This document shows, one piece after another, positions 20,745-26,517 of a stretch of DNA of 29,739 nt. The notes beneath the pieces are model-generated. The model saw nothing but the letters and a program-made list of their open reading frames with translations. It was not told the DNA's origin and made no database searches. The DNA is from a virus (Duplodnaviria; Heunggongvirae; Uroviricota; Caudoviricetes), in the IMG/VR virus record IMGVR_UViG_2531839666_000033, positions 1-29,739 of that record; one strand, given 5' to 3'. The position numbers and the translations under genes were made by a program. The stretch's first letter is position 1. Every line of letters begins with the position of its first letter.

Positions 20745-20781
20745 AAATAAAAAAATCCCGCAGAGTTAGCGGAGCTGCGGG
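20745..20781 (-). terminator. Rho-independent terminator oriented for the minus strand (hairpin plus U7AU4 on the minus strand), directly after the I stop
   Basis: Plus-strand sequence aaaataaaaaaat-CCCGCAG-agttagcggag-CTGCGGG; on the minus strand the 7-bp GC stem is followed by TTTTTTTATTTT; no U-tract on the plus strand. Confidence 0.5.
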
Positions 20782-20817
20782 AAGAGATACGAAGATTAAC
20801 TGTAAGGAGTTATTATT

Positions 20818-20886
20818 ATGTCACAGCAAAAAAAAACGGTAACGCAGAGAAATTATAAGCGCCACTGGGATTTTGTGAAAATGTGA
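20818..20886 (+). CDS. putative 22-codon basic peptide ORF with strong RBS inside the I-J insert (may not be translated)
   Basis: AAGGAG at 20804-20809, 8-nt spacer, then ATG; MSQQKKTVTQRNYKRHWDFVKM. Its RBS and start are fully antisense to a predicted minus-strand transcript. Confidence 0.25.
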   Translation: MSQQKKTVTQRNYKRHWDFVKM

Positions 20887-20903
20887 AGAATTTCAGAAAT
20901 TTT
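20881..20903. repeat. copy 1 of a 23-bp perfect direct repeat ATGTGAAGAATTTCAGAAATTTT (near-palindromic core AATTTCAGAAATT)
   Basis: Identical 23-mer at 20881-20903 and 21060-21082, 179 bp apart, inside the I-J insert. Confidence 0.9.
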
Positions 20904-21059
20904 CTGTTGCGGAGCTGAACTAAAAAACGCTCCCGCAATACACCTGGATATTAACGGGAGGAACGAATAGTCACCTTAAGGAGTTGCGATTAATTGCTTT
21001 TATTGACCGCAGGTAATCTACCCATCCGGCAAGGTTTCCTCCACGGGAATTTGCCGGAA

Positions 21060-21082
21060 ATGTGAAGAATTTCAGAAATTTT
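21060..21082. repeat. copy 2 of the 23-bp direct repeat ATGTGAAGAATTTCAGAAATTTT
   Basis: Perfect match to 20881-20903; followed within 15 nt by a plus-strand terminator hairpin. Confidence 0.9.
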
Positions 21083-21095
21083 ATTCCGTCATGAC

Positions 21096-21126
21096 ACAGG
21101 CACCCTCCGGGGTGCCTGTCGTTTTC
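21096..21126 (+). terminator. Rho-independent terminator (10-bp perfect stem ACAGGCACCC/GGGTGCCTGT, UCCG loop, then CGTTTTCT) just upstream of the J RBS
   Basis: Read directly from the sequence; lies 44 nt upstream of the J start codon. Confidence 0.55.
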
Positions 21127-21169
21127 TGGCATAAACAGATTCAGACATCAGACAGGAGAGGGGGACAGA

Positions 21170-24100
21170 GTGGGTAAAGGGGGCGACAAGGGGCACACAC
21201 CGCGTGAGGCGAAGGACAATCTCAAATCCACGCAGATGATGAGCGTGATTGATGCCATTGGTGAGGGACCGGTGGAAGGTCCGGTGAAGGGACTGCAGAG
21301 TATTCTGGTGAACAAAACCCCGCTGACGGACACGGACGGTAATCCCGTGATACACGGTGTGACCGCCGTCTGGCGTGCCGGGGAGCAGGAGCAGACACCG
21401 CCGGAAGGCTTTGAGTCCTCCGGGGCGGAAACCGCACTGGGCGTGGAGGTGACGAAGGCAAAGCCGGTGACGCGCACCATCACGTCAGCGAACATTGACC
21501 GTCTGCGGGTCACCTTCGGGGTACAGTCACTGGTGGAGACCACCTCAAAGGGTGACCGTAATCCCTCTTCTGTCCGCCTGCTGATTCAGCTTGAGCGTAA
21601 CGGGCACTGGGTGACGGAGAAGGATGTCACCATTAACGGCAAGACCACCTCGCAGTATCTGACGTCGGTGATTCTGAATAATCTCCCTGAGCGCCCCTTT
21701 AACATCCGGATGGTCAGGGTGACGGCGGACAGCACCACGGACCAGCTGCAGAACAGAACGCTGTGGTCGTCATACACCGAAATCATCGATGTGAAACAGT
21801 GCTACCCGAACACGGCCATTGTGGGGCTGCAGGTGGATGCGGAGCAGTTTGGTGGCCAGCAGCTGACGGTGAACTACCATATCCGCGGTCGCATCATTCA
21901 GGTGCCGTCAAACTATGACCCGGAAAAACGCACCTACAGCGGTATCTGGGACGGGAGTCTGAAACCGGCATACAGCAATAACCCGGCCTGGTGCCTGTGG
22001 GACATGCTGACCCACCCGCGCTACGGGATGGGAAAACGCCTGGGGGCCGCGGATGTGGACAAGTGGGCACTGTATGCCATCGGGCAGTACTGCGACCAGA
22101 CGGTCCCGGATGGTTTCGGGGGCACAGAGCCGCGGATGACCTTTAATGCGTACCTGTCACAGCAGCGTAAGGTGTGGGATGTCCTGGGGGATTTCTGCTC
22201 GGCGATGCGCTGTATGCCGGTATGGAACGGCCAGACGCTGACGTTCGTTCAGGACCGCCCGTCGGATGTGGTGTGGCCGTACACCAACAGCGATGTGGTG
22301 GTGGATGATAACGGCGTGGGGTTCCGCTACAGCTTCAGTGCCCTGAAGGACCGGCACACGGCGGTGGAGGTGAATTACACCGACCCGCAGAACGGCTGGC
22401 AGACTTCCACGGAACTGGTGGAAGACCCGGACGCCATCCTGCGCTACGGGCGCAATCTGCTGAAGATGGATGCGTTTGGCTGTACCAGCCGCGGTCAGGC
22501 CCACCGTGCCGGACTGTGGGTGATAAAGACAGAACTGCTGGAAACGCAGACGGTGGATTTCACGCTCGGGTCACAGGGGCTGCGGCACACGCCCGGTGAC
22601 ATTATTGAAATCTGTGATAACGACTACGCAGGGACCCTGACCGGCGGACGCATCCTGTCCATCGATGCCGCCAGCCGTACCCTGACGCTGGACCGTGAGG
22701 TGACACTGCCGGAAGCAGGGACATCGACGGTGAACCTGATTAACGGCAGCGGTAAGCCGGTGCGCGTGGACATCACTGCACACCCCGCCCCGGACCGGAT
22801 ACAGGTCAGTACCCTGCCTGATGGTGTGGAGACATACGGGGTGTGGGGACTCTCCCTGCCGTCACTGCGCCGTCGCCTGTTCCGCTGTGTCTCCATCCGG
22901 GAAAACACGGACGGCACCTTTGCCATCACGGCAGTGCAGCACGTACCGGAAAAAGAAGCCATCGTGGATAACGGGGCCCGCTTTGAGCCGCTCTCCGGCT
23001 CACTGAACAGCGTCATCCCGCCGGCAGTGCAGCACCTCACGGTGGAGGTGAGTGCCTCAGACGGCCAGTATCTGGCGCTGGCGAAATGGGACACGCCGCG
23101 GGTGGTGAAGGGCGTGCGCTTCAGTCTGCGCCTGACCAGTGGCAGTGGTGAAAACAGCCGCCTGGTGACCACCGCCATCACTGCCGACACGGAGCACCGT
23201 TTCAGTGGCCTGCCTCTGGGGGAATACACCCTGACGGTCAGGGCGATAAACAGCTACGGCCAGCAGGGCGAACCTGCCACCACCGCGTTCCGGATTAATG
23301 CGCCTGCAGCACCGGCCAGCATTGAGCTGACGCCGGGGTATTATCAGATAACAGCAGTACCGGTGCTGGCGGTGTATGACCCGACGGTACAGTCTGAATT
23401 CTGGTTCTCAGAAAAACGCATCACGGACATGGCACAGGTGGAAACCTTTGCCCGTTATCTGGGGACAGGCAGCCAGTGGAGTGTCTCCGGCCCGCACATT
23501 AAGCCGGGGAAGGATTTCTGGTTTTATGTGCGCAGCGTCAATCTGGTGGGGAAATCTGCGTTTGTGGAAGCCAGTGGCCGGGCGAGCAATGATGCGGAAG
23601 GGTATCTGGACTTTTTCAGAGGAGAAATCGGGAAGACACATCTGGCACAGGGGATGTGGGAGCTGATTGATAACAGCCAGCTTGATGATGAGATGGCGGA
23701 GATGAAGACCACCATCACAGAAACCCGCAATGAAATCACACAGACGGTCAGTAAAACCCTGGAAGACCAGAGTGCCACCATACAGCAGATACAGCGGGTG
23801 CAGACAGACACAAATAACGACCTGGCTGCGCTGTACATGCTGAAGGTACAGAAAACGAAAACGGCATTCCGTATGTTGCCGGTATAGGTGCGGGGATTGA
23901 GGATGCTGATGGCCAGCCCCTGAGCAATATTCTGCTGCAGGCGGACCGTATCGCGATGATTAACCCGGAGAACGGCAACACCACGCCGCTGTTTGTGGCG
24001 CAGGGGAATCAGCTGTTCATGAACGATGTGTTCCTGAAGCGGTTGTTTGCAGTGAGCATCACCTCGTCCGGCAATCCCCCGACGTTCTCCCTGACGCCGG

Positions 24101-24636
24101 AGGGCAGGCTGACGGCCCGCAATGCGGACATCAGCGGACATATCAGTGCGAACTCGGGCACGCTCAATAATGTCGTGATAGCGGAGAACTGTACGATAAA
24201 TGGCACGCTGAAAGCGGAGAACATTATTGGTGATCTTGTGAAATGTGCAGGGGTGGCTTTTCCGGTGGATGGTAGTTACCTTGCGAACGGTACACGAACG
24301 CTGACGGTGTATGACGATCACAGCTTTGACCGGCAGATTATAATCCCGCCGATAATCTATGTCGGGTCAAAACAGGAATCCCGTACCAGTAATGACATCT
24401 GGACAGAGTGCTTCCTGCATGTTGATCAGAACGGACGCCGGATTTATTCCGGCAGGTCAGTGACAGAGCCGGGAATTTTCAGCGGGATCATCGATATGCC
24501 AGCCGGTCATGGTCATATCACCCTGAGTTTTACCGTAAGTTCACGACGTCAGAACGGGAGTTTTGGCAGTTCACGTATCAGTAACCTTCAGGCGATAGTG
24601 GTGAAGAAAAACAGCGCGGGGATCAGCATCCGCTGA
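21170..24636 (+). pseudogene. J: tail tip / host-specificity protein (lambda gpJ-like), frame disrupted by a 1-nt deletion in an A-run (A4 at 23858-23861)
   Basis: ORF 21170..23887 matches lambda J over about 890 aa ([20 protein letters not shown]…, [35 protein letters not shown]); the conserved C-terminus (…[25 protein letters not shown]…NADISG…) continues in ORF 23956..24636; one extra A in acgaaaaCgg joins the frames. Confidence 0.9.
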
Positions 24637-25039
24637 ACATCGCGCCCCGGGATTGCCGGAAGGAGACAAAAACCGTACAGTATGCGCGGGTGCCTTTGGC
24701 TGATGGCCGGAGGGAACACCTGAAGGCCGGAAAGACGAAGGCCCCGGACAAACATTCATGTTTAACCCGAGGCCTGACTTTCGATCTTCAGCAAATTGAA
24801 GGTTAGCGCCTCTCCGTAAAAGGAGCAAGCGTTTATGTCGCAAAACCGTTAAAAACCACCGTGATTTGTATCACGGTAGTGCTCATTATCTGGATCACCC
24901 ACAGTTCACTGTGCGAGTTCCGGTTCCGGATAGCGGGCGCGGAGATTGCGGCGTTCTTACAGTGTAAGCAGTAAGAAACCGTGGCGGGGGAGAATATCCC
25001 CCGCCGACCGGTTGCTGAGGGTGGTCAGCCGGATGGCAC

Positions 25040-25103
25040 CGTTTTAACACCAACAAACCACAAATTTTACCGCAGGCCGGGAAACCGGTACTGCGGTTTT
25101 TTT
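25040..25103 (+). ncRNA. candidate small RNA 3' module: CA-rich tract plus strong intrinsic terminator (GAAA tetraloop, U7) just upstream of stf; 5' end undefined
   Basis: ttttaacaccaacaaaccacaaatttta followed by hairpin CCGCAG(G)CCGG-GAAA-CCGG(TA)CTGCGG and TTTTTTT (25070-25103). Identity as an sRNA is inferred, not demonstrated. Confidence 0.3.
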
Positions 25104-25116
25104 ATGGGGGAAATCC

Positions 25117-26517
25117 ATGACAGTCAGAATATCGGGTGTGCTGAAGGATGGTACGGGAAAAGCGGTACCGGGATGCACGATAGAGCTGAAAGCGCGACGC
25201 ACAACGGAGACGGTGATTGTCACCACGGTGGCGTATGGTCTGCCGGGGGAAACCGGCAGTTACAGTATGGATGTTGAGCCGGGGTTGTACCGGGTGACGC
25301 TGAACACGGAAGGGTACGCGCCGTCATATGTGGGTGACATTCTGGTGAAGGCGGATTCTGCACCGGGAACGCTGAATAAATTTCTGATGGACCTGGAAGA
25401 CGCACAGTATTACCCGAAAGCCCTTGCAGAGCTGGAAGCGGTGGCCGCGGAAATCCTGAAACGTGCGGAAGCGTCAGCGGCGAGTGCAGAGGAAGCGAAG
25501 AAACGGGCAGAGAATGCGCGGGGACCGAAGGGGGATAAGGGGGACACCGGGCCGCAGGGTATTCCCGGGCCAAAAGGCGATACCGGCGAGCGTGGGCCAA
25601 AGGGTGAGCGTGGTGAGACAGGACCACAGGGGCTTCAGGGTGTGAAAGGTGAACGGGGAGAGAAGGGCGAAAAAGGCGAGCCGGGAGGGCCGGATGCGAC
25701 GACGGCACAGAAGGGAATTGTGCAGTTAAGCAGCGCAACGGACAGTGATGATGAAACGAAGGCAGCCACCCCGAAAGCGGTGAAAGCGGCAATGGACAAA
25801 GCGGACGGATGCCTGGAGAAAGCGAAAAACGGTGACGATATCCCGGATAAGGTGAAGTTTCTGAACACCGTGGGAGCAGCCAGAGTATACGGGCGGGACA
25901 TTCATACGGAGACCGGTGAATGGACCACGAGTGAGTTTGTGGCCTGGCTGAAAGAAAAGGGGGCATTTGACCAGCCTTACTGGATGATGAAGGCATCACT
26001 GCTTGCGGAATTTAATAAGGTCATCACGGATGTCGGACCGGGAAAACTCAATCTGGGAGGCTGCGCCATTGAGGTGATGGGGACGTATAACGCAGCCATA
26101 GTCCGGGTCACCATCGGCGAATACGGTGGCGATGGTTTTCTGAACGGCACGGTCTGTACCTGTACAGTTTACGGAGACACACAACGTTTTCACTGGCGGG
26201 TGGATTACAGCACAAAAAACAAGCCCACAACAGCAAGCCTGACAGTAAATGGCTGGGAGCGTGATGAAGTAACCGGTCGTTTGCGGCAATGGGGCAGTAT
26301 TGAGGTAAGTGAGGATGATGGTAAGCTTATGACACAGCACTCTATCCGTTTTCCTGTCGCTTTTCCGGTTGCTGCTCTGAATGCTCAGGTGTCTGCAGTG
26401 GGAGACCCCCACGCCATTAAGATGTATACCCTGTCGAATCCGTCATTAGTGTCTGTGACTCTGATAACAGTCAGGGGATGCTACGGCAAGTTTTCATGGG
26501 AAGCGATCGGATACTGA
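25117..26517 (+). CDS. stf: side tail fibre protein (lambda Stf-like N-terminus) with an 18-triplet collagen-like Gly-X-Y repeat and a distinct C-terminal receptor-binding domain
   Basis: N-terminus [14 protein letters not shown]…C.I.LKARR…SMDVE.G.Y and motif [29 protein letters not shown] match lambda Stf; [57 protein letters not shown] lies at about 25521-25683. Confidence 0.85.

What the first reader, a model, noticed from the sequence alone, without database searches (positions are those of the whole stretch)
24637..25116. 480-bp non-coding insert between J and stf replaces lom and shares a module with the I-J insert
Lambda encodes lom between J and stf; here there is no ORF of that kind, only 480 bp of structured non-coding DNA. 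It contains an SD plus ATG module (AGGAG 24821-24825, ATGTCGCAAAACCGTTAA at 24835-24852, a 5-codon ORF) that resembles the I-J module (AAGGAG…ATGTCACAGCAAAAA…ACGGTAA), a perfect 7-bp hairpin CCGTGAT-ttgt-ATCACGG (24859-24876), an 8-bp GC hairpin (about 24983-25005), and the terminal CA-rich tract plus terminator. Related small modules recurring in two tail intergenic sites suggest a repeated moron or sRNA family.
Basis: seen in the sequence. Interest (0 to 1): 0.45.

Follow-up and report, generated by a model that had tools for sequence, protein, structure and literature searches.

The report
Frameshifted hok/sok toxin-antitoxin cassette
The "non-coding" DNA between the prophage tail genes J and stf is an ordinary, already-annotated hok/sok toxin-antitoxin cassette whose small toxin gene is broken here by a one-base deletion, and it is unrelated to the I-J spacer.

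Summary
The 480 bp are not filler, though. They hold a hok/sok-family type I toxin-antitoxin cassette. Rfam RF01794 matches 24688-24837 above its gathering score. The closest E. coli prophages are 99.8% identical and annotate a 46-aa Hok/Gef protein exactly here.

The window differs from those prophages by one base: an A5 run is A4 at 24842-24845. The rest of the Hok frame (24861-24974) still scores as Pfam HOK_GEF.

The other elements can all be placed:
- a hok promoter
- a 5' end that pairs with a 3' fold-back element
- an antisense Sok promoter and terminator
- a 3' terminator

No mok-like overlapping ORF exists here, and none is conserved in this clade.

The claimed similarity to the I-J insert is no better than shuffled sequence. 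The same cassette recurs between J and stf, after lom in 933W-like phages, after ogr in P2-like phages, and on IncI plasmids.

I could not decide whether the frameshift is real or a homopolymer sequencing error. The window carries about seven such indels, but one clean independent assembly has the same allele. This is a known kind of element and interest is low.

The parts
24653..24681 (+). Predicted hok promoter: -35 TTGCCG (24653-24658), 17-nt spacer, -10 TACAGT (24676-24681)
   Evidence: Read from the sequence. Cross-family conservation begins exactly at the -35, and the hexamers and spacing are kept in J-stf, lom, ogr/P2 and IncI contexts whose upstream flanks are unrelated. It matches 8 of 12 consensus positions, below the scan's threshold of 9, so the scan does not list it. 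No expression data.
24688..25105 (+). Predicted full-length hok mRNA (about 418 nt)
   Evidence: The 5' end is set by the start of the Rfam RF01794 match and by promoter spacing. The 3' end is set by a hairpin plus U-run. The MFE is -188.5 kcal/mol, z = -8.6 against shuffles, and the molecule is closed by 5'-3' pairing.
24688..24837 (+). hok mRNA leader; match to Rfam RF01794 ('sok antitoxin'), ending at the hok AUG
   Evidence: 63.2 bits against a gathering score of 59, E = 5e-12, full model 1-157. In the curated K-12 hokC/sokC locus the same model hits the hok-sense strand (against the annotation). The model therefore describes the leader, not Sok itself.
24689..24708 (+). 5' element (tac-like): GGUGCC UUU GGCUGAUGGCC
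   Evidence: It pairs with 25022-25040 in the full-length fold. It pairs with 24736-24745 (ucb-like) once the 3' end is removed. It is nearly invariant in 72 family members.
24732..24793 (-). Predicted Sok antisense RNA (about 62 nt): single-stranded 5' tail, hairpin, U-rich tail
   Evidence: The start is inferred about 7 nt downstream of the - strand -10. The hairpin is GGCCUCGGG..CCGGGGCC (24774-24740), followed by UUCGUCUUU. The fold is -28 kcal/mol, z = -3.6. It lies 42-103 nt upstream of the hok ATG, against 49-107 nt for annotated sokC in K-12. Not shown experimentally.
24800..24828 (-). Predicted sok promoter: -35 TTGCTC (24828-24823), 17-nt spacer, -10 TAACCT (24805-24800); overlaps the hok SD on the other strand
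   Evidence: Read from the sequence. This block is invariant in loci collected by BLAST. The 933W-type has TTGACT as its -35. It falls below the consensus scan threshold.
24772..24797 (+). Hypervariable patch inside the leader hairpin; target of the Sok 5' tail
   Evidence: Loci that are otherwise 96-99% identical differ specifically here. The patch lies in the long hairpin at about 24769-24813 that forms in the 3'-truncated fold.
24821..24825 (+). hok Shine-Dalgarno AGGAG
   Evidence: It lies 9 nt upstream of the ATG. AAAGGAG is invariant across the family.
24835..24852 (+).
   Evidence: In relatives the same ATG opens the 46-aa Hok/Gef protein WP_000078852.1.
24842..24845 (+). Frameshift site: A4 where relatives have A5
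   Evidence: This is the only difference from NZ_CP129383 over 531 aligned bases. None of 228 copies in 122 complete E. coli genomes matches the A4 allele exactly. IMG/VR has 0 contigs with A4 and 31 with A5. The same A4 allele is present in one clean assembly, DAXTQB010000012.1.
24861..24974 (+). Remainder of the hok frame (GTG-start 37 aa, MICITVVLIIWITHSSLCEFRFRIAGAEIAAFLQCKQ), now out of frame with the ATG
Evidence: Pfam PF01848 HOK_GEF scores 42.3 bits against a cut-off of 22. The repaired 46-aa protein scores 43.5 bits.
24983..25005 (+). GC-rich hairpin just 3' of the hok stop
   Evidence: 9 pairs, 8 of them G-C. It is present, with compensating stem changes, in all family members.
25022..25040 (+). 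3' fold-back element (fbi-like): UGGUCAGCCGGAUGGCACC
   Evidence: It pairs with the 5' end in the MFE fold. At least 10 long-range pairs form in 69 of 69 members, and the GGUGCC/GGCACC helix forms in 68 of 69. Cross-family conservation ends immediately after it.
25070..25105 (+). Terminator-like hairpin plus U-run, preceded by the CA-rich 3' tail (25047-25068)
   Evidence: The hairpin ACCGCAGGCCGG..CCGGUACUGCGG followed by U7 appears in the fold. This segment is specific to the J-stf type; other contexts carry their own unrelated 3' ends.

Best explanation
The 480 bp hold a self-contained hok/sok-family type I toxin-antitoxin cassette. The conserved module is 24653-25040, followed by its own terminator ending at about 25105. 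It is carried as an accessory insert (moron) between the tail genes J and stf of a lambdoid prophage.

By homology with the R1 and K-12 systems, it should work as follows. A weak promoter makes a stable, roughly 418-nt hok mRNA. Pairing of its 5' end with a 3' fold-back element keeps that mRNA closed. A strong antisense promoter, overlapping the hok ribosome-binding site on the other strand, makes a short Sok RNA. Sok pairs with the leader and prevents toxin synthesis. Slow 3' trimming of the mRNA lets the 5' end re-pair internally, which exposes the Sok target.

In the sequence as given, hok itself is dead. A single-base deletion in an A5 run at codons 3-4 stops translation after five codons. 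All RNA elements are identical to those of intact relatives. This copy could therefore make hok mRNA and Sok RNA but no toxin.

What is shown: homology, the frameshift, the predicted folds and the conservation boundaries. What is inferred: the transcripts, the processing, the toxicity and any biological role.
For: Identity of the locus:
- The closest E. coli prophages are 99.8% identical over the 480 bp and annotate a Hok/Gef protein here.
- Phage 1720a-02 has the same I-J-hok-stf order.
- The single difference from those relatives is A5 to A4.
- The repaired ORF is a 46-aa Hok. It scores 43.5 bits on Pfam PF01848 against a cut-off of 22.
- Rfam RF01794 scores 63.2 bits against a gathering score of 59.

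Structure:
- The full-length model folds with a closing 5'/3' helix, z = -8.6.
- That helix is predicted in 69 of 69 relatives.
- Removing the 3' element re-pairs the 5' end with 24736-24745. This is the first helix of the Rfam consensus.

Module boundaries and Sok:
- Conservation starts at the -35 and stops right after the fold-back element, in four unrelated genomic contexts.
- The predicted Sok has the same position relative to the hok ATG as annotated sokC in K-12.
Against: - No transcript, toxicity or processing data exist for this locus.
- Both promoters fall below the consensus scan threshold.
- The 5'/3' helix is conserved but shows no covariation. Cognate and non-cognate duplex energies are -30.0 and -29.6 kcal/mol.
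- A mok-like ORF, required for hok translation in R1 (PMC9841398), is absent here and in most of the clade.
- The predicted opening of the hok SD after truncation is small, 0.20 to 0.24 unpaired probability. How translation is switched on is therefore unresolved.
- The frameshift itself may be a sequencing artefact.
Confidence: 0.92

Rival explanations
1. The cassette is fully functional in the real organism. The missing A is a homopolymer-length sequencing or assembly error, so hok is intact (46 aa) and the locus is a working toxin-antitoxin pair.
For: - The window carries a series of isolated 1-nt length changes in A/T runs relative to 96-99% identical prophages: 2109, 3496, 18820, 20828, 23857, 24841 and 27578. 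Six of the seven are deletions.
- None of the 45 G/C runs of 5 or more is affected.
- Together with a 1-nt insertion at about 19897 that is not in such a run and splits K, these changes split a lysis gene, a hypothetical gene, L, J and hok.
- Hok is intact in all 228 copies in complete genomes and in 31 IMG/VR contigs.
- The A4 allele is absent from GTDB representatives, JGI metagenomes and IMG/VR.
Against: - An otherwise clean, independent assembly (DAXTQB010000012.1) carries exactly the same A4 allele in a different prophage context, with J intact at the 23857 site.
- J frameshifts of other kinds occur in related prophages in other assemblies, so real decay is common in this prophage family.
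Confidence: 0.45
2. The frameshift is real and the locus is a toxin-null remnant that still makes Sok. It would be a neutral relic. Alternatively it would be an 'orphan antitoxin' that neutralises identical hok copies on co-resident prophages.
For: - The same allele is found in a clean assembly.
- All RNA elements and both promoters are unchanged relative to intact relatives.
- Genomes that carry this hok variant have a median of 2 and up to 5 copies.
- L, K and J are also broken in the window, consistent with a decaying prophage.
Against: - The indel pattern looks like homopolymer sequencing error.
- The allele is seen in only one other record.
- No evidence bears on cross-neutralisation.
Confidence: 0.45
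3. An N-terminally shortened Hok (37 aa, from GTG 24861) is still made, by re-initiation after the 5-codon ORF that ends 8 nt upstream.
For: The GTG-start ORF retains the whole Pfam HOK_GEF match at 42.3 bits. The stop at 24850-24852 lies close to the GTG.
Against: - There is no Shine-Dalgarno sequence before the GTG.
- The shortened product lacks the basic N-terminus (K4, K7), of which Q3 and K4 are invariant in the family.
- The remaining evidence is only that the ORF exists.
Confidence: 0.05
4. One reading: structured non-coding DNA belonging to a repeated small-RNA or moron family that also occupies the I-J intergenic site.
For: Both sites have an AAGGAG followed by ATGTC..CA(A)AAA.
Against: - The alignment is no better than shuffles.
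- The I-J insert has no hok/sok Rfam signal even at E = 10.
- The I-J ORF has no Pfam hit.
- The J-stf insert is a recognisable Hok/Gef locus.
Confidence: 0.02

Closest known systems
46-aa Hok/Gef loci between gpJ and the stf-like tail-fibre gene in E. coli lambdoid prophages (WP_000078852.1; e.g. NZ_CP129383, NZ_CP129252; phage 1720a-02 KF030445)
   Same: The sequence is the same (99.8%) and so are the flanking genes. 270 complete E. coli genomes carry at least 80% of the 480 bp.
   Different: The window lacks one A in the A5 run, so hok is frameshifted.
hok/sok/mok of plasmid R1 (Gerdes laboratory; features summarised in PMC9841398)
   Same: It shares a Hok/Gef toxin, a leader matching RF01794, 5'/3' fold-back pairing (tac/fbi), an alternative 5'/internal pairing after 3' shortening (tac/ucb), and an antisense RNA gene opposite the leader.
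   Different: There is no mok-like overlapping ORF. Hok is shorter, 46 aa against 52 aa. The DNA is too diverged for blastn against plasmids to recover R1-type loci; only 33 plasmid records at 71-76% identity were found, all of the 46-aa clade. The cassette is phage-borne, not plasmid-borne.
hokC/mokC/sokC of E. coli K-12 (b4412, b0018, b4413)
   Same: The same Rfam leader model hits it (118 bits in K-12). Sok has the same position relative to the hok start codon.
   Different: Protein identity is 37%. K-12 has an annotated mokC that overlaps hokC; the window has none.
hokW-sokW of Stx2 prophage Sp5 (PMC8621323)
   Same: It is a hok/sok-type locus carried by a lambdoid prophage. It has been shown to be a type I TA and to speed lysis and double phage release after induction. 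That is a plausible role for the J-stf cassette too.
   Different: HokW is described as 51 aa with 44% identity to R1 Hok. The 46-aa clade that sits after lom in 933W/Sp5-like phages appears to be a separate locus. I did not compare the sequences directly.
Lambda lom / bor-type morons
   Same: It is an autonomous accessory gene with its own promoter and terminator, inserted in the late region downstream of J.
   Different: There is no homology: Lom is an Ail/Lom beta-barrel protein and none is present in the window. In 933W-like phages lom and this hok cassette are neighbours, not alternatives.

Membership tests
hok/sok (Hok/Gef) type I toxin-antitoxin | Small hydrophobic toxin of the Hok/Gef family (Pfam PF01848) | tested here: met
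   The repaired 46-aa ORF scores 43.5 bits and the window's 37-aa remnant scores 42.3 bits, against a cut-off of 22. NCBIfam HokA and Hok models match only below their cut-offs: 38 and 37 bits against 89 and 73.
hok/sok (Hok/Gef) type I toxin-antitoxin | Intact toxin reading frame from its SD-preceded start codon | tested here: not met
   The change from A5 to A4 at 24842-24845 stops translation after 5 codons. It may be a sequencing artefact.
hok/sok (Hok/Gef) type I toxin-antitoxin | hok mRNA leader with the family's sequence and structure (Rfam RF01794 at or above gathering score) | tested here: met
   63.2 bits against 59, with the full-length model matched. The strand was checked against the curated K-12 locus.
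hok/sok (Hok/Gef) type I toxin-antitoxin | Antisense Sok RNA gene with its own promoter and terminator opposite the leader | tested here: inconclusive
   Conserved hexamers TTGCTC-17-TAACCT lie on the - strand, but they fall below the scan threshold. The predicted 62-nt RNA has a hairpin and a U-tail. Its geometry matches sokC. There are no expression data.
hok/sok (Hok/Gef) type I toxin-antitoxin | Long-range 5'-3' pairing (tac/fbi) closing the full-length mRNA | tested here: met
   It is predicted in the window (z = -8.6) and in 69 of 69 relatives. It is conserved but shows no covariation.
hok/sok (Hok/Gef) type I toxin-antitoxin | Alternative pairing of the 5' end with an internal box (tac/ucb) after 3' shortening | tested here: met
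   The truncated fold pairs 24688-24698 with 24736-24745. The same helix appears in the Rfam consensus. This is prediction only, and the effect on SD accessibility is small.
hok/sok (Hok/Gef) type I toxin-antitoxin | Overlapping mok leader ORF whose translation is needed for hok translation | tested here: not met
   All three frames have stops within 40 nt upstream of the hok ATG, and no ORF reads through the SD. Only 25 of 72 unique family members have such an ORF.
hok/sok (Hok/Gef) type I toxin-antitoxin | Toxin kills when Sok is lost; stable mRNA and unstable antisense RNA | not testable with these tools
   This needs expression and toxicity assays.
Lambda Lom (Ail/Lom outer-membrane protein) | Homologous ORF between J and stf | tested here: not met
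   tblastn with a 933W-type Lom finds nothing in the window at E <= 1e-3.
Proposed 'module family' shared with the I-J insert | Sequence similarity above chance between 24800-24880 and 20795-20880 or 20970-21050 | tested here: not met
   50 of 500 and 241 of 500 shuffles score as well. The I-J insert has no RF01794 signal at E <= 10.

The most novel reading that the evidence does not exclude
The phage-borne 46-aa Hok clade may be a genuinely mok-less variant of hok/sok, in which hok translation is controlled directly rather than through a leader ORF. The window's allele may be a naturally selected toxin-null copy that keeps Sok and so disarms identical hok copies on co-resident prophages, acting as an anti-addiction element.
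Probability: 0.1. Interest if true: 0.35.

Novelty: already known. Interest (0 to 1): 0.15.

Why it matters
It matters mainly as a correction. A stretch flagged as enigmatic non-coding DNA is a routine, RefSeq-annotated Hok/Gef cassette, and a single-base frameshift hid its toxin ORF.

Two small points could interest specialists:
- This phage- and plasmid-borne 46-aa Hok clade mostly lacks the mok ORF that is essential in the R1 paradigm.
- The same cassette has been captured at the ends of the late or tail regions of three different temperate-phage types.

The frameshift also flags possible homopolymer errors or prophage decay across the whole window. That affects how other findings from this window should be read.

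Tried and rejected
1. Similarity between the J-stf and I-J inserts was tested by local alignment against shuffles. It is at chance level.
2. An Rfam scan of the I-J insert at a permissive threshold found nothing meaningful.
3. I looked for covariation supporting the 5'/3' helix. The 5' end is nearly invariant, and cognate and non-cognate duplex energies are indistinguishable. MAFFT also misaligned the 3' element between subtypes, so I did not use the count of structure pairs on alignment A2.
4. I looked for a mok ORF. It is absent in the window and sporadic in the clade.
5. I tested for a direct SD-opening switch between the full-length and truncated mRNA. The predicted shift is only 0.20 to 0.24, too weak to claim.
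6. I tried to find the window's source, or other carriers of the frameshift. The 37-aa remnant is on record, but mostly from contig edges or error-rich assemblies. The 905-aa J fragment is not on record. The exact A4 pattern is absent from GTDB representatives, JGI metagenomes and IMG/VR.
I replaced it with a DNA pattern scan.
8. Programmed frameshifting and transcriptional slippage were considered and dropped. CAAAACC is not a slippery heptamer, and A4/A5 is too short for slippage. This rests on reasoning only.

Full report
**Observation**

The interval 24637-25116 is exactly the gap between the stop codon of the J-like gene (ORF ending at 24636) and the ATG of the stf-like tail-fibre gene at 25117.
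- AGGAG at 24821-24825
- ATGTCGCAAAACCGTTAA at 24835-24852
- the 7-bp hairpin at 24859-24876
- the GC hairpin at 24983-25005 (9 pairs)
- a CA-rich tract followed by a hairpin plus T-run ending at about 25105

No Lom homologue occurs anywhere in the window (tblastn).

The claimed resemblance to the I-J insert does not survive a test. Local alignment of 24800-24880 with 20795-20880 scores 17, against 13.5 +/- 2.2 for shuffles, and 50 of 500 shuffles do as well. With 20970-21050, 241 of 500 do as well. For the whole inserts, 50 of 300 do as well. A permissive Rfam scan of the I-J insert gives nothing.

**What it is**

Megablast of the 480 bp against complete E. coli genomes finds 270 genomes with at least 80% coverage. 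The best are 99.8% identical, and all annotate a 'Hok/Gef family protein' under the match. In NZ_CP129383 the order is gpJ, then a 46-aa Hok/Gef protein (WP_000078852.1), then the tail-fibre gene. The same order holds in NZ_CP129252, NZ_CM143728 and phage 1720a-02.

Alignment shows a single difference over 531 bases: an A5 run in the relatives is A4 in the window, at 24842-24845. With A5, the ATG at 24835 opens MSQKPLKTTVICITVVLIIWITHSSLCEFRFRIAGAEIAAFLQCKQ. That protein scores 43.5 bits on Pfam HOK_GEF against a cut-off of 22. With A4, translation stops after MSQNR. The rest of the frame survives as a GTG-start 37-aa ORF at 24861-24974 and still scores 42.3 bits.

Independently, Rfam RF01794 ('sok antitoxin') matches 24688-24837 at 63.2 bits against a gathering score of 59, over the full model and ending at the hok AUG. 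It is the only Rfam family found in the window.

**Anatomy**

I collected homologues by BLAST from phages, plasmids and chromosomes at 71-99% identity. Conservation begins abruptly at a -35-like TTGCCG (24653) and ends immediately after GGCACC (25035-25040). The flanks are unrelated in the different contexts. This delimits the mobile module.

The elements, in order:
- **hok promoter.** TTGCCG-17 nt-TACAGT lies 7 nt upstream of G24688, where the Rfam match starts.
- **Closing helix.** The model transcript 24688-25105 folds with z = -8.6. It is closed by pairing of the 5' end (GGUGCC..GGCUGA, 24689-24708) with 25022-25040. The same long-range helix appears in the MFE of 69 of 69 relatives. This is the tac/fbi arrangement described for R1 hok mRNA (PMC9841398).
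- **Refolding.** When the 3' element is removed, the 5' end re-pairs with 24736-24745 and a long hairpin forms at about 24769-24813. That 5'/internal helix is also the first helix of the Rfam consensus, so it corresponds to tac/ucb.
- **sok promoter and Sok.** On the minus strand the invariant block carries TTGCTC-17 nt-TAACCT (24828-24800), which reads TTGACT in the 933W type. A transcript starting near 24793 would run through a hairpin (24774-24740) and a U-rich tail to about 24732.

To check the strand logic I fetched the curated K-12 hokC/mokC/sokC locus. There RF01794 hits the hokC-sense strand, while annotated sokC lies on the opposite strand, 49-107 nt upstream of the hokC ATG. The Rfam model therefore describes the hok leader. 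My predicted Sok, at 42-103 nt upstream, has the same geometry.

The segment complementary to the Sok 5' tail (24772-24797) is the most variable part of the locus, even among copies that are 96-99% identical. That is what one expects of the specificity determinant of an antisense pair.

The one at 24859-24876 lies inside the hok coding region. The one at 24983-25005 is the conserved post-stop hairpin. The CA-rich tract plus terminator is the 3' tail of the mRNA.

**Departures from the paradigm**

There is no mok. All three frames carry stop codons within 40 nt upstream of the hok ATG, and no ORF reads through the hok SD. Across 72 unique family members only 25 have such an ORF, mostly in the P2-associated subgroup.

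In R1, mok translation up to the hok SD is required (PMC9841398). I tested whether the hok SD itself might be opened by the refolding. The predicted unpaired probability rises only from 0.20 to 0.24, though in the same direction in 64 of 69 members. How hok translation is activated in this clade remains open.

The 5'/3' helix is conserved but offers no covariation. Neither promoter reaches the threshold of the consensus scan.

**Distribution**

- 83 lie just downstream of ogr in P2-like elements.
- 14-16 lie between J and stf, as here.
- 8-10 lie just downstream of lom in 933W-like phages.
- The rest are at contig ends or in unknown contexts.

Plasmid copies sit next to trbA on IncI plasmids and within P2-like segments on other plasmids. 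The cassette is thus a recurrent cargo at the ends of late or tail regions. It is a neighbour of lom in some phages rather than its replacement. All Hok ORFs in the IMG/VR sample are intact.

The experimentally studied hokW-sokW of prophage Sp5 encodes a 51-aa Hok and appears to be a different locus. It acts as a type I TA, and it advances lysis and doubles phage release after induction (PMC8621323). That gives a plausible role for prophage-borne hok cassettes. I could not test this role for the present clade.

**Is the frameshift real?**

Evidence for an artefact:
- Compared with prophages 96-99% identical, the window shows isolated 1-nt length changes in A/T runs at 2109, 3496, 18820, 20828, 23857, 24841 and 27578. 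Six of the seven are deletions.
- None of the 45 G/C runs of 5 or more is affected.
- Together with a 1-nt insertion at about 19897 that is not in such a run and splits K, these changes split a lysis gene, a hypothetical gene, L, J and hok.
- No copy in 122 complete genomes (228 places) matches the A4 allele exactly.
- The allele is absent from GTDB representatives, JGI metagenomes and IMG/VR. IMG/VR has 31 contigs with A5.

Evidence for a real allele:
- One otherwise clean assembly (DAXTQB010000012.1) has exactly this A4 allele. It sits in a different prophage, next to the hya operon, with J intact at the 23857 site.
- Other records holding the 37-aa remnant are contig-edge truncations or visibly error-ridden assemblies.
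- J frameshifts of other kinds occur at or near the same spot in CP027340 and in a Logan assembly, so genuine decay of these prophages is common.

I rate artefact and real allele as about equally likely. Only the reads can decide.

**Verdict**

This is a known kind of element, already annotated in close relatives: a hok/sok type I toxin-antitoxin cassette. In the sequence as given, a 1-nt deletion disrupts the toxin gene. Interest is low.

Two residual points of mild interest remain. One is the mok-less architecture of this phage-borne clade. The other is the possibility that a toxin-null copy retaining Sok acts as an orphan antitoxin.

Noticed in passing
window 20745-21169 (I-J intergenic insert): The insert is itself a degenerate direct duplication of a unit of about 175-180 nt: 20784-20818/20958-20992 at 71% and 20862-20903/21041-21082 at 86%. 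It ends in a terminator-like hairpin at 21096-21127 just before J. It is 99.8% conserved yet unannotated in E. coli genomes: 780 genomes match and 33 carry at least 80% of it. The first copy has a 22-aa ORF (MSQQKKTVTQRNYKRHWDFVKM) with no Pfam hit. It could be a prophage sRNA locus. [quoted passage not shown]
   Followed up: partly
window 2109, 3496, 18820, ~19897, 23857, 27578, 20828: Single-base indels relative to close relatives split several genes: a hypothetical gene, an Rz-like lysis gene, L, K and J (21170-23887 plus 23956-24636). Most are shortened A/T runs. They are either homopolymer sequencing errors or a decaying prophage. Any ORF-based reading of this window should allow for them.
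   Followed up: partly
window ~23850-23955; L142 (CP027340), L143 (Logan SRR22228956): The same stretch of J is frameshifted in other assemblies by different lesions. One is a G-to-A substitution plus one extra A, which lengthens the A-run. The other is a 2-nt deletion at the position matching window 23952. This may be a recurrent breakpoint in J.
   Followed up: partly
window 24772-24797 and homologous loci (e.g. L015 phage 1720a-02): Copies of the cassette that are 96-99% identical overall differ in a concentrated patch that corresponds to the predicted Sok 5' tail and its target. This suggests diversification of antisense specificity between co-resident copies.
   Followed up: no
L037, L114, L021 (IMG/VR contigs and a plasmid record): Some elements carry two hok cassettes of this clade in tandem, 460-720 bp apart.
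   Followed up: no
L150 (E. coli K-12 hokC locus) and window 24688-24837: Rfam RF01794, named 'sok antitoxin', matches the hok-sense strand (the leader up to the hok AUG) and not the strand of the annotated sokC gene. Strand calls from this family therefore need care.
   Followed up: yes
L036 10211-10586 (IMG/VR): One J-stf-type copy has a GTG instead of an ATG start for hok and a 20-nt deletion in the leader.
   Followed up: no
L016, L019 and other ogr/P2-type loci: A 61-87-aa ORF overlapping hok, mok-like and starting at an ATG inside the conserved 5' CUGAUGG or GGAUGUGG, is open in only about half of the P2/IncI-type unique sequences. It is closed in all lom-type copies.
   Followed up: partly
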